The translations under genes and the position numbers were made by a program. Positions 7,734 to 39,030 of a stretch of 64,000 nucleotides of DNA are shown piece by piece; position 1 is the first letter of the stretch; every line of letters begins with the position of its first letter. The notes beneath the pieces were generated by a model, which saw nothing but the letters and a program-made list of their open reading frames with translations, ran no database searches and was not told the origin of the DNA. The stretch lies in assembly GCF_009914755.1 (NCBI RefSeq), contig NC_060938.1. One strand, given 5' to 3'. This stretch comes from the human T2T-CHM13v2.0 reference genome, Homo sapiens.

Positions 7734-9256
7734 TAAACTCCTCAAATTGTTTCTTGGTTTCAAATTTAATCCCTCATATACAGTTATCTCTATTGTACAC
7801 CATCCTTCTCCACCCTCCATTTCAATGCTCTATCCAGTGTTAGGAACATTATGAGTATTCAATAGATTCTGATATTCTGATGTTAAAATGTAAGAATCCT
7901 TTCATTACATTTTAGACTTTTAAAATACTCTGTAATCCTCAAATCCATATGCATACATACATTCAACCTATAAGACATAGAAATAGGTAAAAGGAAACAT
8001 ATATACATAAATCTTCCTTGAGATCCAGAGGTAATTGTAAGTCAGAGATTGGGGTGCTGAATTGGGACTGTGATGCTAGGCTCTCTAGACTTTCACTGAG
8101 GCTAAGCGAATCATCTTCAAATGCCTCATTGGTGCTGCAAGTCTGTGACACAATTTAGAGGGTGATTATTTGCCTCACAGAAACACTTTAAAATTCCTTT
8201 AAGTTACTTCTTTATTCATTGGATATGCTTATTTATAGACCCTTAAATTATCATTTACCAAGGCTGGAGCAAGAGAAACTTCCAGCAAAACTGTTATTTC
8301 CAATTTGAGAGATCTAGCAATGGAGGAAAAATATTTCTGAAATCTTACTATGTCAGTGAGAAATTTACTGAAATAGCTTACACAGTATAACTTAGGGAAC
8401 ACATCTATTGAATAAGACTAGATTGACATGTATGGATAAAGCCACATTACAGATAAAGAATTCAGATTGGGGTAATCACTTGCTCAATAGCATCCAACCA
8501 ACAAACCCTGTATTAAGGACTCATGCCCTGTCCTTGTTTAGTGTTCTTTCCGGAAGACCATACTGTATAGTACCAAGGAAGTGCCATATATAGAGGTTAT
8601 TACTATCTGGGTGGTCAGGAGTCCTTAGTCCTAGTATGTGCTTCAGCACAGTTAACTATACCCTGATACATTAAAAACCATGTATCTTTGCCTTCTATGG
8701 AATAAGAATGTTAGACTAGATTAGATCTCTCTAAGCTCTAAAAATGTATGATTAAATTACTTAATATGCTTAATGTGCTTGGTGACTGTTTTTAAACTTG
8801 AGATGAGCCGTTAAACTTTTTCAGACTAAAATTTTAAAAATCCAGTATAAAACTTTTTGGATCACCTAACTCCTTAATTCTTGCTAGAGTTCTGCACAGT
8901 GGGTATCCTTCTAGCCTTAGTGTAACTCTTGGCATTATATAGCTTGTTTTCCTTATCCAAATGACATTAAGTCCTTTGAGTCACATTGGAGGTTCTGCTC
9001 TCAGACCTGAGCCCTTGACTTCTAGTTGTGCTAAACTTGTCCTACCAGTGATGCAGCTAGTAGTACAAACAAAAGCAATCACAGATTTCAGTCGTAAAAA
9101 CAAGAACAGCTGAAATACAAGCTGTCCATTTACTTAAAACCTTTTATAGGCTTTACTAGAACATAAAGTTCATTAACTTTTTTTGGCAGCATTAATAAAG
9201 AGGTCAAAAAAATGAAAAAAGAGCAAACTCCTCTTGGAATTTGAGTGAAATTATAA

Positions 9257-27432: not shown

Positions 27433-27692
27433 ATTTCCTCCTCTATATTCCAAAGTTAAATTGTCTGTATATTACTTTTATTTATACTGTATTTTTTCCA
27501 ATCTGGCCATTTAAAAAAATTATTAGTTTGAAAATTATTAACTCCTTCCATCCTCTAATACCACAATAATAAAGTATCTGATATAGCTAATTATGATGTT
27601 CTCAGGTAGCTTAAGATGTGCACAAAGAGAATTAGCTAAAATTCTTATTGCCAGATCCTGATTTCTTTCAATATAGAAGAATGATCTGTTAC

Positions 27693-27950: not shown

Positions 27951-29192
27951 TGGATTTCCTTCTTAATACACAAAGAAATAATTATTTATAAATATCCATT
28001 GATAAAGTGTTTAGCTCTTTCAGAGGCTTAATTCATTTTTCAAGTAAACACAATTTACTGTCAGAGAAATAACTACTTTGCCAGTATAATTCATTTTTTT
28101 TTCAGTTTAAGAATTAAATAAGTATTAACAATAATTGCATATTGAATCTGATTCTCCAAGTATAGGACAGCCTCACTTCTTCCAGATTATTTCAATCTAT
28201 TCCACAAGGGTCTATAAGGTTAGCACTAAAAGTTGAAGTAGGTATAATTTGTCTGCTATTGTCATAGATTAACTTCTCTTTTGGAAAAAGCCTTCCAGGT
28301 TCAGGTCTCTTACCCTTCCATACCAGGCATGGAAATGTCTTACCCCAGCCTACTGTGTATCTACAGCTTAAGTGTAACTTCAAGACTGAATTTTTTAAGA
28401 CTCAAAGAAACAAATGGCAAGTTTTTTCCTGTAGTGATAGGTGAAGAAATATTTTAGGACACAGCACTTTGTAAGAATTATAAAATGGCAGTATTTATAG
28501 AGATCTTAAAGATAATCATTAGTTGAATTTCAGTTTGCTCAAGGGCCCTCAAATTAGAGGCTGTTATTCCATCTTTTCTTCAGGCCAACATTATCTCCTT
28601 AAGATAATCTACAACCCTTGTGAAGGTTGTTCCTGGGTAGAGACTGAGAGGATTTTAGGAAAATTCACGAGTTGGGGTTTTTTTCCCTAGTAATTCTGCA
28701 AAAATGTATTATTGCTCAGTCTCCTTAGGGCAGGTCTAACACCCAGGCACATAGTTTTAGGCCGTATCTTATTCACCTTTGTATCTCTAGTACAAATATT
28801 TTCAGATATGAATTTGTTTCAACTTTTGGTCTCTGCAGTGTCATTTAGTACAGAAATATAAGAGGTAGGCAGTGTATCTTCCTACTATAAAGAAAAAAAC
28901 TAAATTTTTTTTTTGTTAAATAATGTGTCTCAGGTCACTTTTAATAAATACTAAGCTAGTGATTTACTACTGCTTTCCAGGCACTCTTCTGGGTGCTAGG
29001 AATTAATTACAGAGGATTTGACATATGTTAAAGCTCTTGTTTTTTCCACCATTTAATCTGTGGAGCCTTAGTCTTTGGATTTTAAAAATACTTTGAAACA
29101 CCCTAGTATTTATAATCTGCCAAAGAGAGAGTTCACTTGTTGAAAATCAGCAATAATTTCTATGTAAGACTAATAGACTTTGTTTCAACTGT

Positions 29193-29857
29193 TGATATGG
29201 TTTGGCTGTGTCCCCACCCAAATCTCACCTTGAATTGTAGCTCCCATAATTCCCATGTGTTGTGGTGAAAGATAATTGAATCATGGGGGCGGTTTCTCCC
29301 ATACTATTCTCGTGGTAGTAAGAGCTGATGGTTTTATAAGGGGAAACCCCTTTTGCTTGGTTCTCATTCTCTCTTGCCTGCTGCCATGTAACTGGTGGTA
29401 GTGAGTAAGATCTGATTTTTTTTTCAGCATCCAAAATCTTTTTATTAAGAGGGTAGGATCCAAGGTTAGTTTTTGTAGCCTCGGCTGGCCTGTCGGCCTC
29501 TGATGCACTCGAACTTCCAGCCCTTGGAGCAGACATAGGGTTTGGTGTGGCTGTGCGGGGTTCCCGGGCCTTGCTGAAATGCTGGTACACCTTTCGGCCC
29601 TTGCAAATACTGGAGAGCAGGACAGTACCGCAGCCCTCGGGGGAGTCCAGGGGCAAGATCTGATGGTTTTATAAGGGGAAACCCCTTTTGCTTGGTTCTC
29701 ATTCTCTCTTGCCTGCCGCCATGTGCCTTTCGCCTTCTGCCGTGATTGTGAGGCCTCCCCAGCCATATGGAAGTGTGAGTCCACTAAACCTTTTTTTCCC
29801 TTATAGATTACCCAGTCTCGGGTGTCTTTATCAGCGGCGTGAAAATGGACTAATGTA
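29193..29857 (+). mobile_element. THE1C-like MaLR solo LTR with an internal ~80-bp duplication and a nested retrocopy
   Basis: Starts TGATATGGTTTGGCTGTGTCCCCACCC, THE1C-type GGTTTTATAAGGGGAAACCCC, ends GGACTAATGTA; 5-bp TSD ACTGT/GCTGT. Confidence 0.92.
29417..29654 (-). pseudogene. 5'-truncated processed pseudogene of ribosomal protein L18
   Basis: Minus strand encodes [13 protein letters not shown]...KVYQHFSKA, then a frameshift, then [19 protein letters not shown]...ASRGYKN*, matching the RPL18 C-terminus; 3'UTR, AATAAA, poly(A) tail and TSD AAGATCTGAT (29407-29416, 29655-29664). Confidence 0.93.
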
Positions 29858-30277
29858 GCTGTTAATAGTCAAGTTCTCAAAATCAATTGTAAAAGCACAG
29901 TAAGGAAACTTAGAAAAATTACTGATAATTCTACCTTCTAGATAACCAATTTTGATGCATTTTAAATCTATATTAGATTATCCTACATATAAGAAGATAC
30001 AAGTTTCATATATTTTATTCACTTAATTATACCAAGAACATTTTTCCGTGTCATTAAAAATCTTGTAAACCATTTTTACGGCTGCGTAAGAATTCATCAT
30101 ATGCATGTACTATAATTTAGGTAATCTCTTATTTTTGGATATTTAAACCATTTCCTTTCTATTATCATTAACATAAATAATACTACCTGCATTTTCTATT
30201 ATTTCCTTAGAATAAATCCCACAATGAGTAATGCTAAATAAAAGGCATGATCATATTTAATGTAAAGAAAAAATATT

Positions 30278-31823
30278 GGCCAGGTGTGGTGGCTCACTAC
30301 TGTAATCCCAGCACTTTGGGAGGCTGAGACTGGTGGAGAGCTTGAGCTAAGGAGTTCGAGACCAGACTGACCAACATGGCAAAACTCCATCTCTACAAAA
30401 ATACAAAAATTAGCCGGGCTTGGTGGTGCATGCCTGTAGTCCTAACTACTCCGGAGGCTGAAGTGGGAGGATCGCTTGTGCAAGCTGTGAGCCTGCCACT
30501 GCATTCCAGCCTGGGTGACACAGCAAGTCCCTGTCTCTTAAAACAAACAAACAAATTTTTAAAAACCCAAAATACAAATACAGTGTCTTTTTTGGGAAAA
30601 GCTTAGGATGCCTCTTAAACTATGGAACATACAAAACACAAGTTAGGGCAGAAAAAAATATACATGGCTAATGAAAATGTGGGTATAATTGCTACTGTGG
30701 TTTCAGAAACCTGTGTTAAAGATGAATGTGGTGGTCAGATTGCAAGATGTGTTTGTAATATCTGGGCACAGAGGTAGCACAGTTATTGTGCAAAAGAAAC
30801 TATTCCTCTGAAGCTCTAATTTTAGTGATTCTATGTGAGAACTCTGGCCTGCTTGCTCTTTTGCAATCTTGGTTTGCTTGAGGTGTGTTGAGGGCTGACT
30901 GAATGCAAGAGATTTAAAGAATTTGTGTTTCTCACATTCTTTGTTTCAGTTGTAGCTGAGACTGTATCTCTAAGTCATATATCATCAGTTCTACAAAGAA
31001 TATGCATTGCTTCCAGCCCACTAATTCCCTTTTCTAAAAAAACAAAGAAAAGAAAAGAAAGAAAGAAAGAAAAAGAAGGAAAGAAAGAAAGAAAGAGAAA
31101 GAAAAGAAAAGAGAGAAGAAAAACTCAGGCCTGTAATCCCAGCACGTTGGGAGGCCAAGATGGGCAGACAATTTGAAGTCAGGGGTTCGAGAACAGCCTG
31201 GCAAACATGGTGAAACCCTGTCTCTACCAAAAATATAAAAATTAGATGGACGTGCTGGTGCACATAAGTAACCCAGCTATCTGGAAGGCTGAGGCACGAC
31301 AATCTCTTGGACCAAGGAGGCAGAGGTTGCAGTGAGCCACTGCACTCCAGCCTGGCGACAGAACAAGACTCTGTCTCAAAAAAAACCAAACAAATACCCC
31401 CCACCCCCAAACTACACAAAAGACAAGAATTTCCAAGAATAAAATCAAGAGATCTGTACTCACAATTTATGACAGTTTCAATTAGAAAAGTCTGGGTTTT
31501 ATCCTTGTTTTCCTAATATTTTCTTTTCTTTTTCTTTTTTTTTTTAGACAGAGTCTTGCTCTGTCGCCCAGGCTGGAGTGCAGTGGCGTGATCTCAGCTC
31601 ACTGCAACCTCTGCCTCCCGGATTCAAGCAATCCTCTGCCTCAGCCTCCCAAGTAGCTGGGATTACAGGCGCCCACCACCAGGCCCGGCTAATTTTTGTA
31701 TTTTTAGTAGAGACAGGGTTTCACCATCTTGGCCAGGCTGGTCTTGAACTTCTGACCTCGTGATCCACGCGCCTCGGCCTCCCAAAGTGCTGGGATTACA
31801 GGCATGAGCCACCGCGTCCAGCC
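30278..31823. mobile_element. Alus at 30278-30555(+), 31125-31395(+, preceded by (GAAA)n 31036-31122) and 31519-31823(-)
   Basis: Recognisable Alu bodies and tails. Confidence 0.92.
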
Positions 31824-32637
31824 TTTCTAATATTTTCTTTAAAACGTCCCCTTTTTCAAAATTTTTTCAAATTCATGGAAAAGAGGATAGGAATTATGGT
31901 TAAAATTAGTACTAACTGATGACATTAACCGATTAATAACCAATTATGTTCTTAAAAACTGGAAATGATATACACCACTAGATAAAATAATCTTAAATGT
32001 TCATTGACTTTATAGAATTCTCTCAACATTACTTTTTGGTCACAGATAACTTCTGGGTTGACAAAAGCTTTTCTCCAGCGCCATTTCATACAGCTTTTAC
32101 ATGGCTGCACATCACTAGCCTGCTTTAAAGGACGGTGCTCCCAGCCCAAAGCCTCAGGAAAAAGACCATGGCTCAAAAAGCTCTGAGATGTATCCTATCC
32201 ACCTGAAGAGCCTATTGCTTGCCTGTATCCCTCCCTTCTAGTGACACTAATCTTCTGTACAGAAATCCTAGTCCAGCAAACATTGCTCTCATCTTCGCCC
32301 ATACACAACCTATGTAAAGAATGGCTTTCCTACTCTTTGCTGGCGAACTTCAGCTCCCGGATTAGGCATGCCACCTCTTCCAGGTAGCTCTCAGCAACAC
32401 ACTTTTCCATCAGCCTGGGTGTGCCCCTCTGTGTTCCCATGGCGCTTTGCTTTCAGCGCTTCTCCCAAATTATGTTTACCTGTTTATTAGACTCTCCACC
32501 TCTGAAGACCAGGCCATTTCATTTGGCTTTTTACTGCCACGTAGTAGGTACCTGTTCAAGCTTGATGGAAGGACTTCCCCAGCCTCCCCACACATATTAT
32601 GTAAAGTGATCGCTGTCTTTGCTTCCTCCTGGAGACC

Positions 32638-32904
32638 ATTTATTTTATTTTTTTGAGACGGAGTCTCGTTCTGTCGCCCAGGCTGGAGTGCAGTGTCGCA
32701 ATCTCGACTGACTGCAACCTCTGCCTCTCGAGTAGCTGGGACTACAGGCGCGCGCCACCACGCCCGGCTAATTTTTGTATTTTTAGTAGAGACGGGGTTT
32801 CACCATGTTGGCCAGGCTGGCCTCGAACTTCTGACAGCAAGTGATCCACCTACCGCGGCCTTTCAAAGTGCTGAAACTACAGGCATGAGCCTCCACACCC
32901 GTCC
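32638..32904 (-). mobile_element. Alu with internal deletion, CpG-rich
   Basis: Antisense dimer missing a segment between GCCTC repeats. Confidence 0.93.
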
Positions 32905-33333
32905 AGGAGCCCATTTATATGGGAGCCTGCTTCTAAAGATTATTACCTGGTGCCAGGGTATTTTCCAGACCTGTCCTCACATTCCTGTTAAACAGGAGGA
33001 AGTGAATCGCGCTCCTTTTCATCTACCTTCTCGGAGGGTTTATGCCTCCAATATTAACCTCAGCACAGCCAAAGAAAATCATTCCATTCCATTGAGCGGA
33101 GTCAGAAACATGACTAGGTCACGATCACAACCCCGTGTGTGCCAGGGTGACCGAGACTGGGTGACTTTATGGTGTTTCAACGTGTGGGTTTTGACTGATT
33201 ATATTATGGGTTTTCCAGTCAAAAACTCAAAGCAGTGGATAAAGCACTTGCGACCTAAAATAAGCAATGGAATGAACAGGAAGGCGAAACCAGAGTTTAA
33301 AGCGGCAGGACAAACAGGAAAAAGGAAGAGTGA

Positions 33334-33776
<443 letters not shown>

Positions 33777-34159
33777 CCAGCCAGGCAGTTTTAATCGAGC
33801 GCTCACAACCACTGAGACGCAGTGAAGCACCCACCATAAAATCCCAGGAGGCCGACCGCCGGTTCAGACTTTTTCTTTTCTTTAATCCCCGTCCAAGGGA
33901 TCCGCCCTCACCCCCCACCCCAGCCACCCCAATTCCCTATTCCCTCCCCTTGGACGGCGCCGGGGAAAACAAGCTGCTCGAGCTTTATTTCTTCGGTGCA
34001 ACCAACTCAGAATGAATTCCTCCGCCCCTGCGTGCTCAGTGAGTCGGCACCCTAGCAGTGAACTGCATTTAAAACCTCAGGAATTGAGCGAACTCTCCCA
34101 GTGGCTCTCCTCACCGGGATCCCCTTCCACGCCTCCTCCCCGTGCCGCGCCTCAGTCCG

Positions 34160-34590
34160 CACTGCTCATTGGCCGCGTGCCCTGCCAATCCGATGCACGT
34201 CGGCTAGGGCAAAGACCGCGAAAAAGCGCGTACACCTGGCTCTGGGAGCGCGCGCCTAACGCCAGCCAGCAGCAGGAGGCGCGCGAGGCACCACGGCCTG
34301 GCGGCCGAGAGTCAGGGAGGAACCTCATTTACATAACGGCCGCCCCTCTGTCTCCTGGCGGGGGCCGGAGTCCCGCCCCTCGTCCAACTTGAAATCTGTT
34401 GGGTCACGGGCCAGTCACTCCGACCTAGGCAAGCCTGTGGTGGAGCTGGAAGAGTTTGTGAGGGCGGTCCCGGGAGCGGATTGGGTCTGGGAGTTCCCAG
34501 AGGCGGCTATAAGAACCGGGAACTGGGCGCGGGGAGCTGAGTTGCTGGTAGTGCCCGTGGTGCTTGGTTCGAGGTGGCCGTTAGTTGACT
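34160..34590 (+). promoter_or_regulatory. HSPA2 proximal promoter
   Basis: ATTGG 34168-34172, CCAAT 34185-34189, HRE-like CACGT 34196-34200, D-box-like TTACATAAC 34329-34337, GC boxes, TATAAG 34508-34513 about 140 nt before the ATG. Confidence 0.75.
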
Positions 34591-34647
34591 CCGCGGAGTT
34601 CATCTCCCTGGTTTTCCCGTCCTAACGTCGCTCGCCTTTCAGTCAGG

Positions 34648-36567
34648 ATGTCTGCCCGTGGCCCGGCTATCGGCATCGACCTGGGCACCACCTATTCGTG
34701 CGTCGGGGTCTTCCAACATGGCAAGGTGGAGATCATCGCCAACGACCAGGGCAATCGCACCACCCCCAGCTACGTGGCCTTCACGGACACCGAGCGCCTC
34801 ATCGGCGACGCCGCCAAGAACCAGGTGGCCATGAACCCCACCAACACCATCTTCGACGCCAAGAGGCTGATTGGACGGAAATTCGAGGATGCCACAGTGC
34901 AGTCGGATATGAAACACTGGCCGTTCCGGGTGGTGAGCGAGGGAGGCAAGCCCAAAGTGCAAGTAGAGTACAAGGGGGAGACCAAGACCTTCTTCCCAGA
35001 GGAGATATCCTCCATGGTCCTCACGAAGATGAAGGAGATCGCGGAAGCCTACCTGGGGGGCAAGGTGCACAGCGCGGTCATAACGGTCCCGGCCTATTTC
35101 AACGACTCGCAGCGCCAGGCCACCAAGGACGCAGGCACCATCACGGGGCTCAATGTGCTGCGCATCATCAACGAGCCCACGGCGGCGGCCATCGCCTACG
35201 GCCTGGACAAGAAGGGCTGCGCGGGCGGCGAGAAGAACGTGCTCATCTTTGACCTGGGCGGTGGCACTTTCGACGTGTCCATCCTGACCATCGAGGATGG
35301 CATCTTCGAGGTGAAGTCCACGGCCGGCGACACCCACCTGGGCGGTGAGGACTTCGACAACCGCATGGTGAGCCACCTGGCGGAGGAGTTCAAGCGCAAG
35401 CACAAGAAGGACATTGGGCCCAACAAGCGCGCCGTGAGGCGGCTGCGCACCGCTTGCGAGCGCGCCAAGCGCACCCTGAGCTCGTCCACGCAGGCGAGCA
35501 TCGAGATCGACTCGCTCTACGAGGGCGTGGACTTCTATACGTCCATCACGCGCGCCCGCTTCGAGGAGCTCAATGCCGACCTCTTTCGCGGGACCCTGGA
35601 GCCGGTGGAGAAGGCGCTGCGCGACGCCAAGCTGGACAAGGGCCAGATCCAGGAGATCGTGCTGGTGGGCGGCTCCACTCGTATCCCCAAGATCCAGAAG
35701 CTGCTGCAGGATTTCTTCAACGGCAAGGAGCTGAACAAGAGCATCAACCCCGACGAGGCGGTGGCCTATGGCGCCGCGGTGCAGGCGGCCATCCTCATCG
35801 GCGACAAATCAGAGAATGTGCAGGACCTGCTGCTACTCGACGTGACCCCGTTGTCGCTGGGCATCGAGACAGCTGGCGGTGTCATGACCCCACTCATCAA
35901 GAGGAACACCACGATCCCCACCAAGCAGACGCAGACCTTCACCACCTACTCGGACAACCAGAGCAGCGTACTGGTGCAGGTATACGAGGGCGAACGGGCC
36001 ATGACCAAGGACAATAACCTGCTGGGCAAGTTCGACCTGACCGGGATTCCCCCTGCGCCTCGCGGGGTCCCCCAAATCGAGGTTACCTTCGACATTGACG
36101 CCAATGGCATCCTTAACGTTACCGCCGCCGACAAGAGCACCGGTAAGGAAAACAAAATCACCATCACCAATGACAAAGGTCGTCTGAGCAAGGACGACAT
36201 TGACCGGATGGTGCAGGAGGCGGAGCGGTACAAATCGGAAGATGAGGCGAATCGCGACCGAGTCGCGGCCAAAAACGCCCTGGAGTCCTATACCTACAAC
36301 ATCAAGCAGACGGTGGAAGACGAGAAACTGAGGGGCAAGATTAGCGAGCAGGACAAAAACAAGATCCTCGACAAGTGTCAGGAGGTGATCAACTGGCTCG
36401 ACCGAAACCAGATGGCAGAGAAAGATGAGTATGAACACAAGCAGAAAGAGCTCGAAAGAGTTTGCAACCCCATCATCAGCAAACTTTACCAAGGTGGTCC
36501 TGGCGGCGGCAGCGGCGGCGGCGGTTCAGGAGCCTCCGGGGGACCCACCATCGAAGAAGTGGACTAA
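34648..36567 (+). CDS. HSPA2: Heat shock-related 70 kDa protein 2 (639 aa), intronless CDS
   Basis: [17 protein letters not shown] start, Hsp70 signatures ([14 protein letters not shown]), HSPA2-type [11 protein letters not shown] loop, GPTIEEVD C-terminus; true ATG is 34648 (ORF-track start 34585 is a TTG). Confidence 0.99.
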
Positions 36568-37011
36568 GCTTGCACTCAAGTCAGCGTAAACCTCTTTGCC
36601 TTTCTCTCTCTCTCTTTTTTTTTGTTTGTTTCTTTGAAATGTCCTTGTGCCAAGTACGAGATCTATTGTTGGAAGTCTTTGGTATATGCAAATGAAAGGA
36701 GAGGTGCAACAACTTAGTTTAATTATAAAAGTTCCAAAGTTTGTTTTTTAAAAACATTATTCGAGGTTTCTCTTTAATGCATTTTGCGTGTTTGCTGACT
36801 TGAGCATTTTTGATTAGTTCGTGCATGGAGATTTGTTTGAGATGAGAAACCTTAAGTTTGCACACCTGTTCTGTAGAAGCTTGGAAACAGTAAAATATAT
36901 AGGAGCTTAAATTGTTTATTTTTATGTACTACTTTAAAACTAAACTGAACATTGCAGTAATGTTAAGGACAGGTATACTTTTTGCAAACAAATGCATAAA
37001 TGCAAATGTAA

Positions 37012-37017
37012 AGTAAA
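37012..37017 (+). terminator. Proximal non-canonical HSPA2 poly(A) signal AGTAAA
   Basis: AGTAAA (with CATAAA at 36995-37000) followed by a GU-rich tract; no AATAAA seen nearby. Confidence 0.55.
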
Positions 37018-39030
37018 GCTGAAATTGATCTCAAAGTTACTGTCTTGGAGTTTTCAATTTTCCTTCCTTTATATTTTACCCATATTCGTCTTTTAAGATG
37101 TTAGTATGATGTGAAATTTATCTAACCAATCTTGTTTAATTCCCAGATGAGGGTGCTGCCTTGAATTCCAACAACTTAAGGGGAGAAGAATCTGGGTAAA
37201 CTTCACCCACCCTTAAATACAGAAACCTGACTTGGGGTCTTCCTAGTGTACTCACACTCCTACAACTTAAGTGTCCAAATGAAAATTCACCTGAATATTC
37301 CAGGAAAATATGAGCTATATTCTGGGGTTAAATGTAAAATGAGCCTTTAACAAAAGCTGGGCAGAAGTTGTCTTATAATTGCCAAAGGAAATATGGAAAC
37401 AAATTAATTTTGTGACATACAGGAGCCTGAAACAAGAGACAGCAGGCAAGCTTTCAAGTGACTTAATAGTGAGTATAAATTTAGTCAAACTTGTTTAATT
37501 TTCTAGTAAAACAGCTCAACTTCTGAGCTTATGGCAAATTCTAATAACATGTTTCCCGCAGTTAGAATTACTTGGGTAGGGAAACATAATTATTATTATT
37601 TTTTTCTGGTTTGGGGATCATAACGTTTTTGCAATACTTGCCTTAAATCACTACGATAGATTTCTTTTTTAAAAGGCAAACTGTACTAGATAGTCTTGTA
37701 TTTTGTTAATATACAACTTGTCCATTTTCCTCCATATCCAATTTGAGATTGTTATAGATAAGAATATTGCAACCCTTTGGTGATCCACTATCCTGGACTT
37801 AATCTTTAAAATTCACATCCTTCAGAGAAAGGAATTCATTTTTATTTTTTAGTGAAATGACATGACTACTCTTTTCTTACTCTCTTTAAGGAGAACTTGA
37901 GAGAAATTCAGTAAAACCAATAGGAAAATGCATAGTTAACCTAATGTTTTTACTGCACATAGACGTTTTGATATCTTTCCACATGATGCAGGTTTGCTTC
38001 ATGCTGCTCATAAGACAATAGTTATGAAAGCTTTATCTTCAATTTAGTAGTGGACCCATCTGTGTCATTCAGAGAGATTAATTTTATGAATAATGGAATG
38101 AGTAATAATTTTAAAACTAGCTAAGAAGTTAGCCTAAGAATACTGGCCTTTGGTAATGACCCTTTCATACAAGAGTTGACTCTTAAGTACACATAAGGTG
38201 TTTTTTTTTTTTCCTTTTTAGCAAGCCTCATTTGGGTAGGGGGGAGGAAGATAAATAGCCAACAGTGAAATTGCTTCAACATAAAAACCTTTTTTTTTTT
38301 TTAAAGGAAACTGCTTTTTATACTCTGAAAAGCTAAAGATAACTCCAATTTATCAGTGCTGGTGTCACATTGGTGGAAATTTTTCAGCAATGAGCATTTA
38401 AGGGTGTTTCATGGACTACAGGCATAAATATGTGACAAACTACTATGGTACTACAAAATCAGGTTAATTGTAGCTTTAGAGTGACGTTTACTGTGAGTTT
38501 TACCAAGATAATACCCATTCTGTTACCCTTTTATTAGTCCTTTATTTGTTGAAAGTGTTCATTCCTTGCTCTAACTTCAAAATATAATGGAGTCCTTCTG
38601 TAAATGCAGTTTGGTATGACTCATTTTAGACCTCACTTAAGAGATTAGTTTCTAAAGTATCAGAAAATGACCATTGGTAGTTTTTGATCCTACGGCCTGA
38701 CCTCCGGTAGCTTGCTATAATACTAACATCAATCTGGGCAGATACTTCATCTTCTATTTTGAAAAGTAATTTGTAAAACTCAAATTCTTGAGTTTTACAT
38801 TCTTGAGCATTCTTGAGAGTGTTTCTTATTTAATTCTCTCTTTTCAAATTTACCAAGATTTGCATATTACCAAGATAAAGCCACCAAAGTAGCCATTCAC
38901 TTTCCAGGGGTCAGTTGAAACTTGTAACCTGATAACTCCTGGGAACTCCTTAGCAGATGTTAGATCAGCCATAGTCAAATAACAGTGGAAAAAGTACTTG
39001 ATGTTAGGATGGGGCTAAATTACAGTTTAA

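What the first reader, a model, noticed from the sequence alone, without database searches (positions are those of the whole stretch)
29193..34650. THE1C LTR as a candidate DUX4-responsive alternative promoter spliced into HSPA2
Seen: a sense-oriented THE1C LTR ~4.9 kb upstream of HSPA2 with an intact TAATTGAATCA (29273-29283), two TATAAG boxes (29335, 29670) and a donor AGT|GTGAGT (29775). The later MaLR donor is degraded (GG|GTGTCT, 29822). HSPA2, although intronless in its CDS, has a clean acceptor ctcgcctttcAG (34641-34642) 5 nt before its ATG. Established: THE1/MaLR LTRs carry DUX4 sites and act as alternative promoters in testis, cleavage embryos, FSHD muscle and Hodgkin lymphoma. Inference: a primate-specific LTR-HSPA2 chimeric transcript.
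Basis: partly seen in the sequence, partly recalled or inferred. Interest (0 to 1): 0.75.

Follow-up and report, generated by a model that had tools for sequence, protein, structure and literature searches.

The report
Old LTR supplies HSPA2's alternative promoter
An ancient retrovirus-like repeat 4.9 kb upstream of the human heat-shock gene HSPA2 provides the start site and first non-coding exon of an HSPA2 transcript that is already in RefSeq, so the structure is real but ordinary, and control by the factor DUX4 remains untested.

Summary
Window 29193-29857 is a real, old solo LTR of the THE1 group of ERVL-MaLR elements. It has thousands of relatives, a 4-of-5 target-site duplication, and end-to-end homology to copies that papers name THE1B and THE1D.

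RefSeq NM_001387931.1 starts at 29704, 34 nt after the second TATAAG.

New details:
- The two TATA boxes are an 83-nt tandem duplication.
- An antisense RPL18 processed-pseudogene fragment (29417-29654) lies between the DUX4-like motif and the promoter in use, so the motif is 431 nt from the start site.
- The LTR has no poly(A) hexamer left.
- The LTR leader carries two out-of-frame upstream ATGs.

Age is about 25-60 My by divergence and 40-70 My by print. The subfamily is unresolved (B or C; my data lean B).

DUX4 responsiveness is untested. The motif alone is not beyond chance, only about 1% of bound THE1 copies are activated in print, and no paper found links HSPA2 to it. This is an ordinary member of a well-known kind, of modest interest.

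The parts
29193..29857 (+). Solo LTR of the THE1 group (ERVL-MaLR), sense to HSPA2. It includes an internal tandem duplication and a nested host pseudogene fragment. No retroviral gene is present.
   Evidence: 6776 and 4865 first-look candidates in the genome. 40 were scored in each search and all 40 matched; the non-self matches are 85-88% and 81-86% identical; both pieces match LTRs at places where papers name THE1B or THE1D; the own flanks match no flank of the relatives; neither flank is masked as repeat.
29188..29192 (.). Left copy of the putative 5-bp target-site duplication (ACTGT).
   Evidence: It matches GCTGT at 29858-29862 in 4 of 5 bases. By my own arithmetic the chance of 4 or more of 5 matching is about 0.016. 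The 5-bp expectation for ERVL/MaLR is recalled.
29858..29862 (.). Right copy of the putative target-site duplication (GCTGT).
29273..29283 (+). DUX4-like double-homeobox 11-mer TAATTGAATCA, inherited from the LTR family.
   Evidence: In one search, 19 of 29 relatives keep a match to the recalled pattern at the same columns, and 13 of 29 have the identical 11-mer.
29309..29391 (+). Unit 1 of the 83-nt tandem duplication. It carries the first TATAAG (29335-29340).
   Evidence: families D1, D3.
29392..29416 (+). Left part of duplication unit 2. It ends with AAGATCTGAT (29407-29416), the left target-site duplication of the RPL18 insert, and contains a GTGAGT at 29401-29406.
   Evidence: families D2, D3.
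29417..29654 (-). 5'-truncated processed pseudogene of RPL18: the last ~230 nt of the mRNA plus its poly(A), which reads as a T run at 29417-29424 on the + strand.
   Evidence: the insert matches three consecutive pieces of chr19:51609802-51610589 at 88, 92 and 89% with no introns between them; that place is RPL18; 21 mismatches over 229 aligned columns; flanking 10-nt direct repeat.
29655..29724 (+). Right part of duplication unit 2. It begins with the right AAGATCTGAT (29655-29664) and carries the second TATAAG (29670-29675), the box that precedes the annotated start site.
   Evidence: families D1, D2.
29704..29774 (+). Exon 1 (71 nt, non-coding) of HSPA2 transcript NM_001387931.1, wholly LTR-derived. 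It contains upstream ATGs at 29721 and 29767.
   Evidence: annotation. (uATGs; both are out of frame and overlap the main ATG); the RefSeq 5' end of WNT5A, in an LTR that print calls THE1D, aligns to about 29702.
29775..29780 (+). Splice donor GTGAGT, a family feature of the LTR.
   Evidence: In one search, 27 of 29 relatives have GTGAGT at the same columns.
29775..34642 (+). Intron of the LTR-initiated transcript. It contains the canonical HSPA2 start site (34539) and the upstream part of the CpG-island-like run.
   Evidence: CpG-island-like run from 33250 to 36449.
34622..34642 (+). Acceptor region: branch-point-like CTAAC (34622-34626), a pyrimidine-rich stretch, and AG (34641-34642).
   Evidence: letters; exon 2 of NM_001387931.1 begins at 34643. 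That this CTAAC serves as the branch point is my inference.
34643..37035 (+). Exon 2 of NM_001387931.1, with the coding part at 34648-36567. The RefSeq Select transcript NM_021979.4 is the single exon 34539-37035.

Best explanation
A THE1-group MaLR element inserted upstream of HSPA2 in an early simian ancestor and was reduced to a solo LTR. The LTR later gained an 83-nt internal tandem duplication and then an antisense RPL18 retro-pseudogene fragment inside the second unit.

The LTR's own promoter parts survive downstream of that insert. A TATA box at 29670 directs initiation at 29704, which corresponds to the family's native start site. The LTR's native GTGAGT donor at 29775 ends a 71-nt non-coding exon. 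The copy has no poly(A) hexamer left, so transcripts run on and splice across 4.9 kb to an acceptor 5 nt before the HSPA2 ATG. The result is an mRNA with the full, unchanged HSPA2 reading frame: RefSeq NM_001387931.1.

Shown: the anatomy, the family membership, the annotated exon structure, and that the promoter parts are inherited family features.

Inferred:
- The LTR promoter, and not some upstream start, drives the transcript.
- The isoform is minor or tissue-restricted.
- Its two out-of-frame upstream ATGs reduce HSPA2 translation.
- The acceptor is the old 3' splice site of the 5'UTR intron known in rodent Hspa2.

Which factor switches the LTR on is not known. DUX4 is one candidate among several.
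For: -: NM_001387931.1 has exons 29704-29774 and 34643-37035, with the same coding part as NM_021979.4.
- TATAAG at 29670 lies 34 nt before 29704, and the donor is AGT|GTGAGT at 29774|29775.
- among relatives, TATAAG is kept in 20 of 29 and 24 of 29, and GTGAGT in 27 of 29, so these are family features and not chance.
- the RefSeq 5' end of WNT5A lies in an LTR that Edginton-White 2018 calls THE1D. It aligns to own position about 29702 and has a TATA 29 nt upstream.
- Zuo 2023 places the THE1 start site upstream of THE1B position 204.
- 26 of 29 relatives have ATTAAA within 14 nt after the donor. This copy has no AATAAA or ATTAAA from 29704 to 29857.
- the acceptor has CTAAC, a pyrimidine tract and AG.
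- rodent Hspa2 has a 5'UTR intron that contains the proximal start site T2. The human canonical start (109 nt before the ATG, i.e. 34539) corresponds to T2, so the LTR-variant intron has the same topology.
- THE1 LTRs are documented promoters in testis, DUX4-expressing muscle cells, Hodgkin lymphoma cells and human oocytes. MaLR LTRs are said to carry a canonical donor in their consensus.
Against: - The evidence behind NM_001387931.1 (which cDNAs, which tissue) is not visible with these tools.
- The HSPA2 review (passages read) states that human HSPA2 has a single start site, no intron and one mRNA population. The LTR isoform must therefore be rare or absent in the cells studied there.
- RefSeq lists no functional element over the LTR. 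Its only two are at the canonical promoter.
- The second comparator failed: the RefSeq 5' end of IL2RB lies in a THE1-like LTR but does not align near 29704. So 1 of 2 comparators agrees.
- Two out-of-frame upstream ATGs, the first in the context GCCGCCATGT, overlap the main ATG. This argues against the isoform being an efficient source of protein.
- Orthology of the acceptor with the rodent intron end could not be tested, because no rodent sequence was available and the two primary papers are not held.
Confidence: 0.85

Rival explanations
1. One reading: DUX4 binds the TAATTGAATCA at 29273-29283 and switches on the LTR promoter. The LTR-HSPA2 transcript would then be made where DUX4 is present (testis germ cells, cleavage embryos, FSHD muscle).
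For: - The 11-mer is intact at the family's position.
- Young 2013: 32.9% of THE1C and 29.6% of THE1B copies are bound by DUX4.
- In that paper all tested repeat-initiated transcripts were also found in testis, and a THE1B-HEY1 transcript is DUX4-dependent.
- HSPA2 is testis-enriched.
Against: - Only 1.3% (THE1C) or 1.0% (THE1B) of bound copies were activated.
- The motif is 431 nt from the start site in use. The duplication and the RPL18 insert separate them, whereas the motif lies only 62 nt before the first, unannotated TATA box.
- This copy lacks 24 bases of the 5' piece that at least 80% of relatives have.
- The 11-mer pattern is not enriched beyond chance in the window.
- 'HSPA' occurs 0 times in the main text of Young 2013.
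- The HSPA2+DUX4 search found 6 papers, none about this by title.
- One FSHD study reports HSPA2 transcripts markedly down (total gene, not the isoform).
- Table S4 of Young 2013 could bear on this, but it is a closed supplement.
Confidence: 0.15
2. The LTR start is low-level, non-functional transcription from a decayed promoter. It was captured in annotation because the donor and acceptor happen to be good. It contributes little or no HSPA2 protein and is not under selection.
For: - The review says one mRNA population and one start site in human cells.
- Two out-of-frame uATGs overlap the main ATG, while the canonical 109-nt leader has none.
- The LTR is interrupted and has lost bases.
- No RefSeq functional element lies over it.
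- No paper mentions it.
Against: - It was accepted as a known RefSeq NM_ record.
- The 70-nt segment holding the TATA box is unusually well kept in both duplicate units. In 67 of 69 compared columns both units carry the base common in 58 relatives. That fits constraint, but also fits chance.
Confidence: 0.45
3. The LTR is an oocyte or early-embryo start site whose transcript runs through the canonical CpG-island promoter. Its main effect would be on that promoter (transcription-coupled methylation or interference) and not on protein output.
For: - Brind'Amour 2018 (passages): THE1 LTRs start transcripts in human oocytes, and LTR-initiated units that embed CpG-island promoters are associated with their methylation.
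- The canonical HSPA2 start at 34539 and the start of a CpG-island-like run (33250-36449) lie inside the LTR-variant intron.
- The review notes that HSPA2 promoter methylation modulates its expression.
Against: There is no expression or methylation data for this locus in any call. That paper notes the relation is harder to see in human oocytes. HSPA2 is not named there as far as the passages shown go.
Confidence: 0.07
4. The 5' end at 29704 is a truncated cDNA end of a longer transcript. That transcript would start at the first TATA box (start expected near 29369) or be read-through from ZBTB1, whose last exon ends at 27460.
For: The first TATA box has the native 62-nt spacing from the DUX4-like motif. 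The supporting cDNAs cannot be seen here.
Against: A TATAAG sits 34 nt upstream of 29704. An independent LTR-started RefSeq gene (WNT5A) begins at the homologous base to within 2 nt.
Confidence: 0.07

Closest known systems
THE1B-HEY1 chimeric transcript (Young et al. 2013, PLoS Genet; section 9 read whole)
   Same: A sense-oriented THE1 LTR upstream of a much older host gene supplies the start site and first exon and splices into the gene. [quoted passage not shown]
   Different: - The HEY1 LTR is about 40 kb upstream and splices via two extra exons to exon 2, which truncates the protein by 38 residues. Here one splice lands 5 nt before the ATG and the protein is unchanged.
- DUX4 dependence was shown for HEY1 by RT-PCR and 5'-RACE. 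It is untested for HSPA2.
- The HSPA2 LTR is interrupted by a duplication and an RPL18 fragment.
THE1B-CSF1R and THE1D-WNT5A LTR promoters in Hodgkin lymphoma (Edginton-White 2018, passages; solo-LTR review 2024, one passage)
   Same: THE1 LTR acts as alternative promoter, and part of the LTR becomes the 5'UTR. The RefSeq 5' end of WNT5A aligns within 2 nt of the HSPA2 variant's start.
   Different: Those are described as activated in tumour cells through NF-kB, AP-1 and Sp1 sites. For HSPA2 neither the tissue nor the activator is known.
Rodent Hspa2 (Hst70/Hsp70-2) distal start T1 with 5'UTR intron and proximal start T2 inside the intron (Scieglinska & Krawczyk review, passages)
   Same: Two starts. 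The distal one is spliced over an intron that contains the proximal start and ends just before the ATG. The human canonical start corresponds to T2.
   Different: The rodent distal exon lies about 350 nt upstream and is host promoter sequence with testis-specific boxes. The human distal exon is 4.9 kb upstream and derives from a primate LTR. Whether the acceptor is the same site was not testable.
LTR-initiated transcription units in oocytes (Brind'Amour et al. 2018, passages)
   Same: An upstream MaLR LTR with its own donor splices into a genic exon, and the canonical CpG-island promoter ends up inside the transcribed unit.
   Different: There is no oocyte evidence for this locus.

Membership tests
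THE1 group of ERVL-MaLR LTRs | Highly repeated, dispersed LTR-sized sequence. | tested here: met
   6776 and 4865 first-look candidates. 40 were scored in each search and all 40 matched (E at most 4.6e-59 and 2.9e-57). Hits lie on many chromosomes; 58 of 58 saved relatives have both LTR ends, with a median length of 361.
THE1 group of ERVL-MaLR LTRs | Homology to copies that print names THE1. | tested here: met
   Both pieces match LTRs in four places:
- Near CRH (THE1B in Zuo 2023 Mob DNA).
- About 46 kb upstream of HEY1 (THE1B at about 40 kb in Young 2013).
- At the WNT5A 5' end (THE1D in Edginton-White 2018).
- At the IL2RB 5' end (name recalled).
E-values range from 1e-14 to 1e-32. That these are the very copies the papers mean is inferred from their position and orientation.
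THE1 group of ERVL-MaLR LTRs | LTR termini and short target-site duplication. | tested here: met
   the LTR begins with TG and ends with TA where CA is expected (one base off). The flanks are ACTGT and GCTGT, 4 of 5 matching. The TG...CA and 5-bp expectations are recalled.
THE1 group of ERVL-MaLR LTRs | Restricted to simian primates. | not testable with these tools
   Print only (Zuo 2023; Pavlicev 2015 table 'Anthropoids'). No primate genome was available here.
   No named reference sequence is available, and building a consensus is barred. I used single copies that print names or implies.

One search, mean distance of the 29 nearest relatives to each:
- THE1B copies: 0.248 and 0.271.
- Presumed THE1C copies: 0.242, 0.269 and 0.309.
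- THE1D copies: 0.334 and 0.368.

LTR length:
- Relatives: median 361.
- THE1B: 366 and 364.
- Presumed THE1C: 379, about 376 and about 367.
- THE1D: 375 and 380.

The element is not THE1D. B versus C stays open, with length leaning to B.
LTR-derived alternative promoter / chimeric host transcript | Annotated start site inside the LTR, in sense, downstream of the LTR's TATA box. | tested here: met
   start at 29704; TATAAG at 29670.
LTR-derived alternative promoter / chimeric host transcript | LTR-borne donor spliced to a host exon with the host reading frame kept. | tested here: met
   29774 joined to 34643; coding part 34648-36567 in both transcripts; the donor is a family feature, 27 of 29.
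LTR-derived alternative promoter / chimeric host transcript | Direct expression evidence (capped 5' ends, junction reads). | not testable with these tools
   Reads and expression tracks are not available. Only the RefSeq record itself could be seen.
DUX4-activated MaLR promoters (Young 2013 class) | DUX4 motif in the LTR. | tested here: met
DUX4-activated MaLR promoters (Young 2013 class) | DUX4 occupancy (ChIP-seq peak). | not testable with these tools
   No ChIP data available. The prior from print is 29.6-32.9% of THE1B/C copies bound.
DUX4-activated MaLR promoters (Young 2013 class) | DUX4-dependent appearance of the repeat-initiated transcript. | not testable with these tools
   HSPA2 is absent from the main text. 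Table S4 (238 promoters) is closed. The print prior is 1.0-1.3% of bound copies activated.
Processed pseudogene (the nested RPL18 fragment) | Intron-less copy of spliced mRNA, poly(A) tail, flanking target-site duplication. | tested here: met
   three parent exon pieces are contiguous in the insert; the parent is RPL18; T run at 29417-29424 on the + strand; AAGATCTGAT on both sides.
Rodent-type Hspa2 5'UTR intron | Same 3' splice site as the rat/mouse intron. | not testable with these tools
   Only the topology agrees. There is no rodent sequence, and the primary papers are not held.

The most novel reading that the evidence does not exclude
A primate-specific LTR has rebuilt, on what would be the ancestral acceptor 5 nt before the ATG, the distal-start-plus-5'UTR-intron layout that rodents have natively and that humans are said in print to have lost.

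The resulting transcript has two out-of-frame upstream ATGs and runs through the canonical CpG-island promoter. It would act mainly as a regulator of HSPA2 in germ cells, oocytes or cleavage embryos, through translational damping, promoter interference or transcription-coupled methylation. It might be switched on by DUX4.
Probability: 0.08. Interest if true: 0.55.

Novelty: new member of a known kind. Interest (0 to 1): 0.3.

Why it matters
LTR-derived alternative promoters are a well-known kind, and this transcript is already in RefSeq. The gain is therefore modest, in three respects.

1. It corrects a statement still standing in the HSPA2 literature, that the human gene has no intron, one start site and one mRNA (review passages).
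2. It shows that the alternative leader is LTR-made, carries two out-of-frame upstream ATGs, and places the canonical CpG-island promoter inside an intron. That matters to anyone measuring HSPA2 expression, promoter methylation or translation in testis, tumours or embryos.
3. It gives a clean case in which a solo LTR that lost its poly(A) signal and was split by later insertions still supplies TATA box, start site and donor.

If DUX4 or oocyte activity were shown, it would add a fertility-relevant chaperone gene to those networks.

Tried and rejected
1. Naming the subfamily from print. An 18-base stretch of the LTR's 5' end was searched in all papers and found in 0. The HSPA2+THE1C search found 0 papers. 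HSPA2+THE1 found 2, both unrelated by title (listing only).

2. Naming the subfamily from single print-named copies. Single old copies differ from each other by 0.18-0.47, which is too noisy. The result is limited to 'not THE1D; B or C'. PAMR1 upstream gave no LTR. SPINK1, CD48 and TM4SF5 gave only partial ones, and those were dropped from the distance and length comparisons.

3. Dating from the best genome matches alone. This gave an own branch of 0.027-0.049. I rejected it as biased low, because those copies were chosen for likeness to the query. I replaced it with a cross-design: each half was measured in copies chosen on the other half (28 of 29 copies usable in each set).

4. The idea that the two duplication units were homogenised recently. 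They differ at 4 of 73 positions (2 of 70). I first thought this too low for an old duplication. In fact both units simply keep the family's common base in 67 of 69 columns and share no rare base in 0 of 69. No recent event is needed, and the idea was dropped.

5. A search for a shared internal (proviral) sequence next to the relatives. Of 55 downstream and 56 upstream flanks, 0 resembled 3 or more others. The few pairwise hits were mostly the same locus saved twice. The relatives are therefore nearly all solo, and no core gene was available or sought.

6. The bacterial-type promoter/terminator scan is irrelevant to human DNA and was not used.

7. The one-frame translation of the RPL18 fragment was not used.

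8. The broad six-term paper search was badly designed. None of its 20 listed papers contains HSPA2, so I replaced it.

9. The second DUX4-like 11-mer at 8749-8759 lies in a ZBTB1 intron outside any masked repeat and was treated as chance.

Full report
**What is there.**
I read 28900-30100 and 34000-34760.
- The repeat begins with TGATATGG at 29193.
- It ends with CTAATGTA at 29857.
- Its flanks are ACTGT (29188-29192) and GCTGT (29858-29862). That is a 4-of-5 match, which I take as the target-site duplication of a solo LTR. The 5-bp expectation for this class is recalled.
- Neither flank is masked as repeat in the annotation table.
- Neither flank resembles the flanks of related copies.

There is therefore no internal, gene-bearing part here. 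No retroviral gene is present, so there are no gene breaks to count.

The chromosome table lists two HSPA2 transcripts.
- NM_021979.4 is the RefSeq Select record. It is one exon, 34539-37035.
- NM_001387931.1 is placed as BestRefSeq. Its exons are 29704-29774 and 34643-37035.
- Both have the same coding part, 34648-36567.

It predicted the donor at 29774|29775, the acceptor at 34642|34643, and a start near 29700. All three are exact. What lies behind the RefSeq record (which cDNAs, which tissue) cannot be seen with these tools.

**Is it a real old virus remnant, and of what family?**
The LTR is split by a nested insert, so I searched its two sides apart and never joined them.
- The 3' piece (29655-29857) gave 6776 first-look candidates in the reference genome. 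40 were scored and all 40 matched. The 39 non-self matches are 85-88% identical.
- The 5' piece (29193-29392) gave 4865 candidates. 40 were scored and all 40 matched. The non-self matches are 81-86% identical.
- All 58 saved relatives (29 per search) have both LTR ends. Their median length is 361, and 47 of 58 fall between 357 and 368.

To tie this family to a printed name, I fetched places where papers name a copy. Each place holds one LTR, in the gene's orientation, that matches both of my pieces.

| Place | Printed name | Source |
|---|---|---|
| Near CRH | THE1B | Zuo 2023 Mob DNA, passages, |
| About 46 kb upstream of HEY1 | THE1B 'about 40 kb upstream' | Young 2013, section 9, |
| WNT5A 5' end | THE1D | Edginton-White 2018, passages, |
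| IL2RB 5' end | THE1D | recalled |

The element is therefore a THE1-group LTR of the ERVL-MaLR class.

**Subfamily.**
No named reference sequence is on hand, a consensus may not be built, and an 18-base stretch of the LTR occurs in no searchable paper. As presumed THE1C copies I used LTRs within 10 kb upstream of genes that Pavlicev 2015 lists under THE1C (table passage).
- ALDH1A1, ASB2 and CHN1 gave whole LTRs.
- SPINK1, CD48 and TM4SF5 gave partial ones, which were dropped.
- PAMR1 gave none.

| Comparator group | Mean distance from the 29 nearest relatives, both pieces | LTR length |
|---|---|---|
| Own nearest relatives | n/a | median 361 |
| THE1B copies | 0.248, 0.271 | 366, 364 |
| Presumed THE1C copies | 0.242, 0.269, 0.309 | 379, about 376, about 367 |
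| THE1D copies | 0.334, 0.368 | 375, 380 |

The element is not THE1D. B or C stays open, with a lean to B. A repeat annotation would settle it at once.

**How old?**
A solo LTR has no partner LTR to compare with, so I estimated this copy's own branch length from triplets of pairwise distances.
- With the best matches alone the branch is 0.027-0.049. That figure is biased low, because those copies were picked for likeness to the query.
- I then measured each half in copies picked on the other half, with 28 of 29 usable in each set. The branch is 0.052 for the 5' 116 nt and 0.095 for the 3' 130 nt. Without CpG sites it is 0.047 and 0.058. The relatives themselves average 0.074.
- Against the two THE1B copies, which were not chosen by likeness, the branch plus any subfamily difference is 0.116-0.119. 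In a second alignment it is 0.12-0.135 (my arithmetic from the printed distances).
- At a recalled neutral rate of 2.2e-9 per site per year these values span roughly 25 to 60 million years.

The nested RPL18 fragment gives a floor. It differs from its parent exons at 21 positions over 229 aligned columns: 20 transitions and 1 transversion, 8 of them of CpG-decay type. That is about 6-9% and tens of millions of years. The LTR must be older than its insert.

Print agrees. THE1A-D are found only in simians, so they arose after the split from tarsiers, within the last 70 My. They were active until about 45 My ago (Zuo 2023 Virus Evol, Results read whole). Two other sources give 'more than 40 million years' and 'Anthropoids'. 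Whether this particular copy is shared with monkeys could not be tested.

**Anatomy inside the LTR.**
The repeat finder shows an 83-nt tandem duplication.
- Unit 1 is 29309-29391.
- Unit 2 begins at 29392. It is interrupted at 29417 and resumes at 29655.
- 29320-29389 and 29655-29724 are identical at 68 of 70 positions.

The interruption (29417-29654) is the last ~230 nt of RPL18 mRNA on the minus strand.
- It matches three consecutive parent exon pieces at chr19:51609802-51610589 with no introns between them.
- It starts on the + strand with a T run, which is the poly(A) tail.
- It is flanked by the 10-nt direct repeat AAGATCTGAT.

The order of events follows from the structure. The duplication came first and the retro-insertion into unit 2 came second, since unit 1 is uninterrupted.

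I first thought the units too alike for an old duplication. In fact both units keep the family's common base in 67 of 69 compared columns, and they share a rare base in none. They are simply well kept. This could be chance or constraint, and I cannot tell which.

**The promoter parts are family heirlooms.**

| Feature at the homologous columns | Relatives that keep it |
|---|---|
| DUX4-like 11-mer | 19 of 29 |
| TATAAG | 20 of 29 and 24 of 29 |
| GTGAGT donor | 27 of 29 |
| ATTAAA within 14 nt after the first donor | 26 of 29 |

This copy has no AATAAA or ATTAAA anywhere from 29704 to 29857. Loss of the LTR's own poly(A) hexamer is a simple reason why transcripts run on and use the donor. That last step is my inference.

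The annotated start at 29704 lies 34 nt after the TATAAG at 29670. The RefSeq 5' end of WNT5A lies inside the THE1D-named LTR. It aligns to own position about 29702 and has a TATA 29 nt upstream of it. The IL2RB 5' end does not align there. So 1 of 2 comparators agrees. Zuo 2023 also places the THE1 start upstream of THE1B position 204. I conclude that 29704 is the LTR's native start site.

This copy lacks 24 bases of the 5' piece and 9 of the 3' piece that at least 80% of relatives have.

**The acceptor.**
Upstream of 34643 lie a CTAAC (34622-34626), a pyrimidine-rich stretch and AG.

The HSPA2 review (Scieglinska & Krawczyk, passages) describes the rodent gene.
- It has a 5'UTR intron.
- It has a distal spliced start T1, about 351 nt before the ATG.
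- It has a proximal unspliced start T2, about 116 nt before the ATG and inside the intron.

The review says the human gene starts at a single site 109 nt before the ATG, corresponding to T2. It also says the human gene has 'no intron(s)' and 'only one population of mRNA'. 34648 minus 109 is 34539, exactly the NM_021979.4 start.

The LTR variant therefore restores the rodent topology: a distal spliced start, with the proximal start inside the intron. My inference is that it reuses the old 3' splice site. This could not be tested, because no rodent sequence was available and the primary papers are not held. In any case RefSeq contradicts the review's 'no intron, one mRNA'.

**The leader.**
I joined the two annotated exons in memory.
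- The variant's 5'UTR is 76 nt.
- It has two upstream ATGs, at 29721 (context GCCGCCATGT) and at 29767.
- Both are out of frame with HSPA2. Their reading frames, of 81 and 205 codons, run past the main ATG.
- The canonical 109-nt leader has no ATG.

By the scanning model (recalled), the LTR-started mRNA should make HSPA2 protein poorly.

**DUX4.**
The 11-mer fits the recalled pattern TAAYBBAATCA. That pattern occurs twice in the window against 1.21 expected, and 35 of 100 shuffles gave 2 or more. The second match lies in a ZBTB1 intron outside any masked repeat.

The motif is 62 nt before the first TATA box. It is 397 nt before the second TATA box and 431 nt before the annotated start, with the duplicated unit and the RPL18 fragment in between.

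Young 2013 (passages; section 9) reports the following.
- 32.9% of 9,874 THE1C copies and 29.6% of 22,433 THE1B copies are bound by DUX4.
- Only 1.3% and 1.0% of the bound copies are activated.
- 'HSPA' occurs 0 times in the main text.

Of 6 papers holding both HSPA2 and DUX4, none is about this by title. One FSHD study says HSPA2 transcripts are markedly down (one passage, total gene). I put DUX4 control at about 0.15.

Other documented switches of THE1 LTRs are NF-kB, AP-1 and Sp1 in Hodgkin cells and unknown factors in human oocytes.

**A bolder reading.**
The canonical start and the beginning of a CpG-island-like run (33250-36449) lie inside the LTR variant's intron. In oocytes, LTR-started units that embed CpG-island promoters go with methylation of those promoters, and THE1 LTRs do start transcripts in human oocytes (Brind'Amour 2018, passages). 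Together with the upstream ATGs, this allows a regulatory role in place of a protein-coding one. I have no data for it.

**Is it in print?**

| Search | Papers found |
|---|---|
| HSPA2 + THE1C | 0 |
| NM_001387931 or ENST00000394709 | 0 |
| HSPA2 + THE1 | 2, both unrelated by title |
| HSPA2 + LTR + transposable element | 12 (8 listed, none on this by title or abstract start) |

Supplementary tables of promoter catalogues may list it.

**Verdict.**
- The chimeric transcript is real and already annotated.
- The element is a real solo THE1-group LTR of simian age.
- The subfamily label is open.
- DUX4 control is unproven.
- This is an ordinary new instance of a well-known kind. It has some tidy extra anatomy, and it corrects the HSPA2 literature.

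Noticed in passing
window 29417-29654 (minus strand): A 5'-truncated RPL18 processed pseudogene with poly(A) tail and a 10-nt target-site duplication is nested in the LTR. It differs from the parent exons at 21 positions over 229 aligned columns and still holds 8 CpG. Seven other RPL18-like retrocopies were saved as L002-L008 and not studied.
   Followed up: yes
window 29309-29391 and 29392-29416 + 29655-29724: An 83-nt tandem duplication of the TATA-box segment of the LTR. Both units keep the family's common base in 67 of 69 columns. Whether that reflects constraint is open.
   Followed up: partly
window 29721 and 29767: Two upstream ATGs in the LTR-derived leader are out of frame with HSPA2 and overlap its start codon. 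The canonical leader has none.
   Followed up: partly
window 29401-29406: A second GTGAGT lies in the left part of duplication unit 2, about 32 nt after where the first TATA box would start transcription. It could serve as a donor for transcripts from that box. No annotation uses it.
   Followed up: no
window 34539-34648: The HSPA2 review states that the human gene has no intron and a single mRNA population. RefSeq NM_001387931.1 contradicts this.
   Followed up: yes
window 8749-8759 (minus strand): A second match to the DUX4-like pattern (TAATTTAATCA) lies in a ZBTB1 intron, outside any masked repeat of 100 bases or more. It is probably chance.
   Followed up: partly
L078 (chr3:55539282-55539653), L080 (chr22:37634798-37635171), L083 (chr5, first 114 bases): The RefSeq gene 5' ends of WNT5A and IL2RB lie inside THE1-like LTRs. 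That of SPINK1 abuts one, about 114 nt below its 5' end. Only the WNT5A end aligns with the HSPA2 variant's start.
   Followed up: partly
window 33250-36649: A CpG-island-like run covers the canonical HSPA2 promoter, the first exon of HSPA2-AS1 (34115-34166, minus strand) and most of the coding part. Observed/expected CpG is 0.81-0.93.
   Followed up: no
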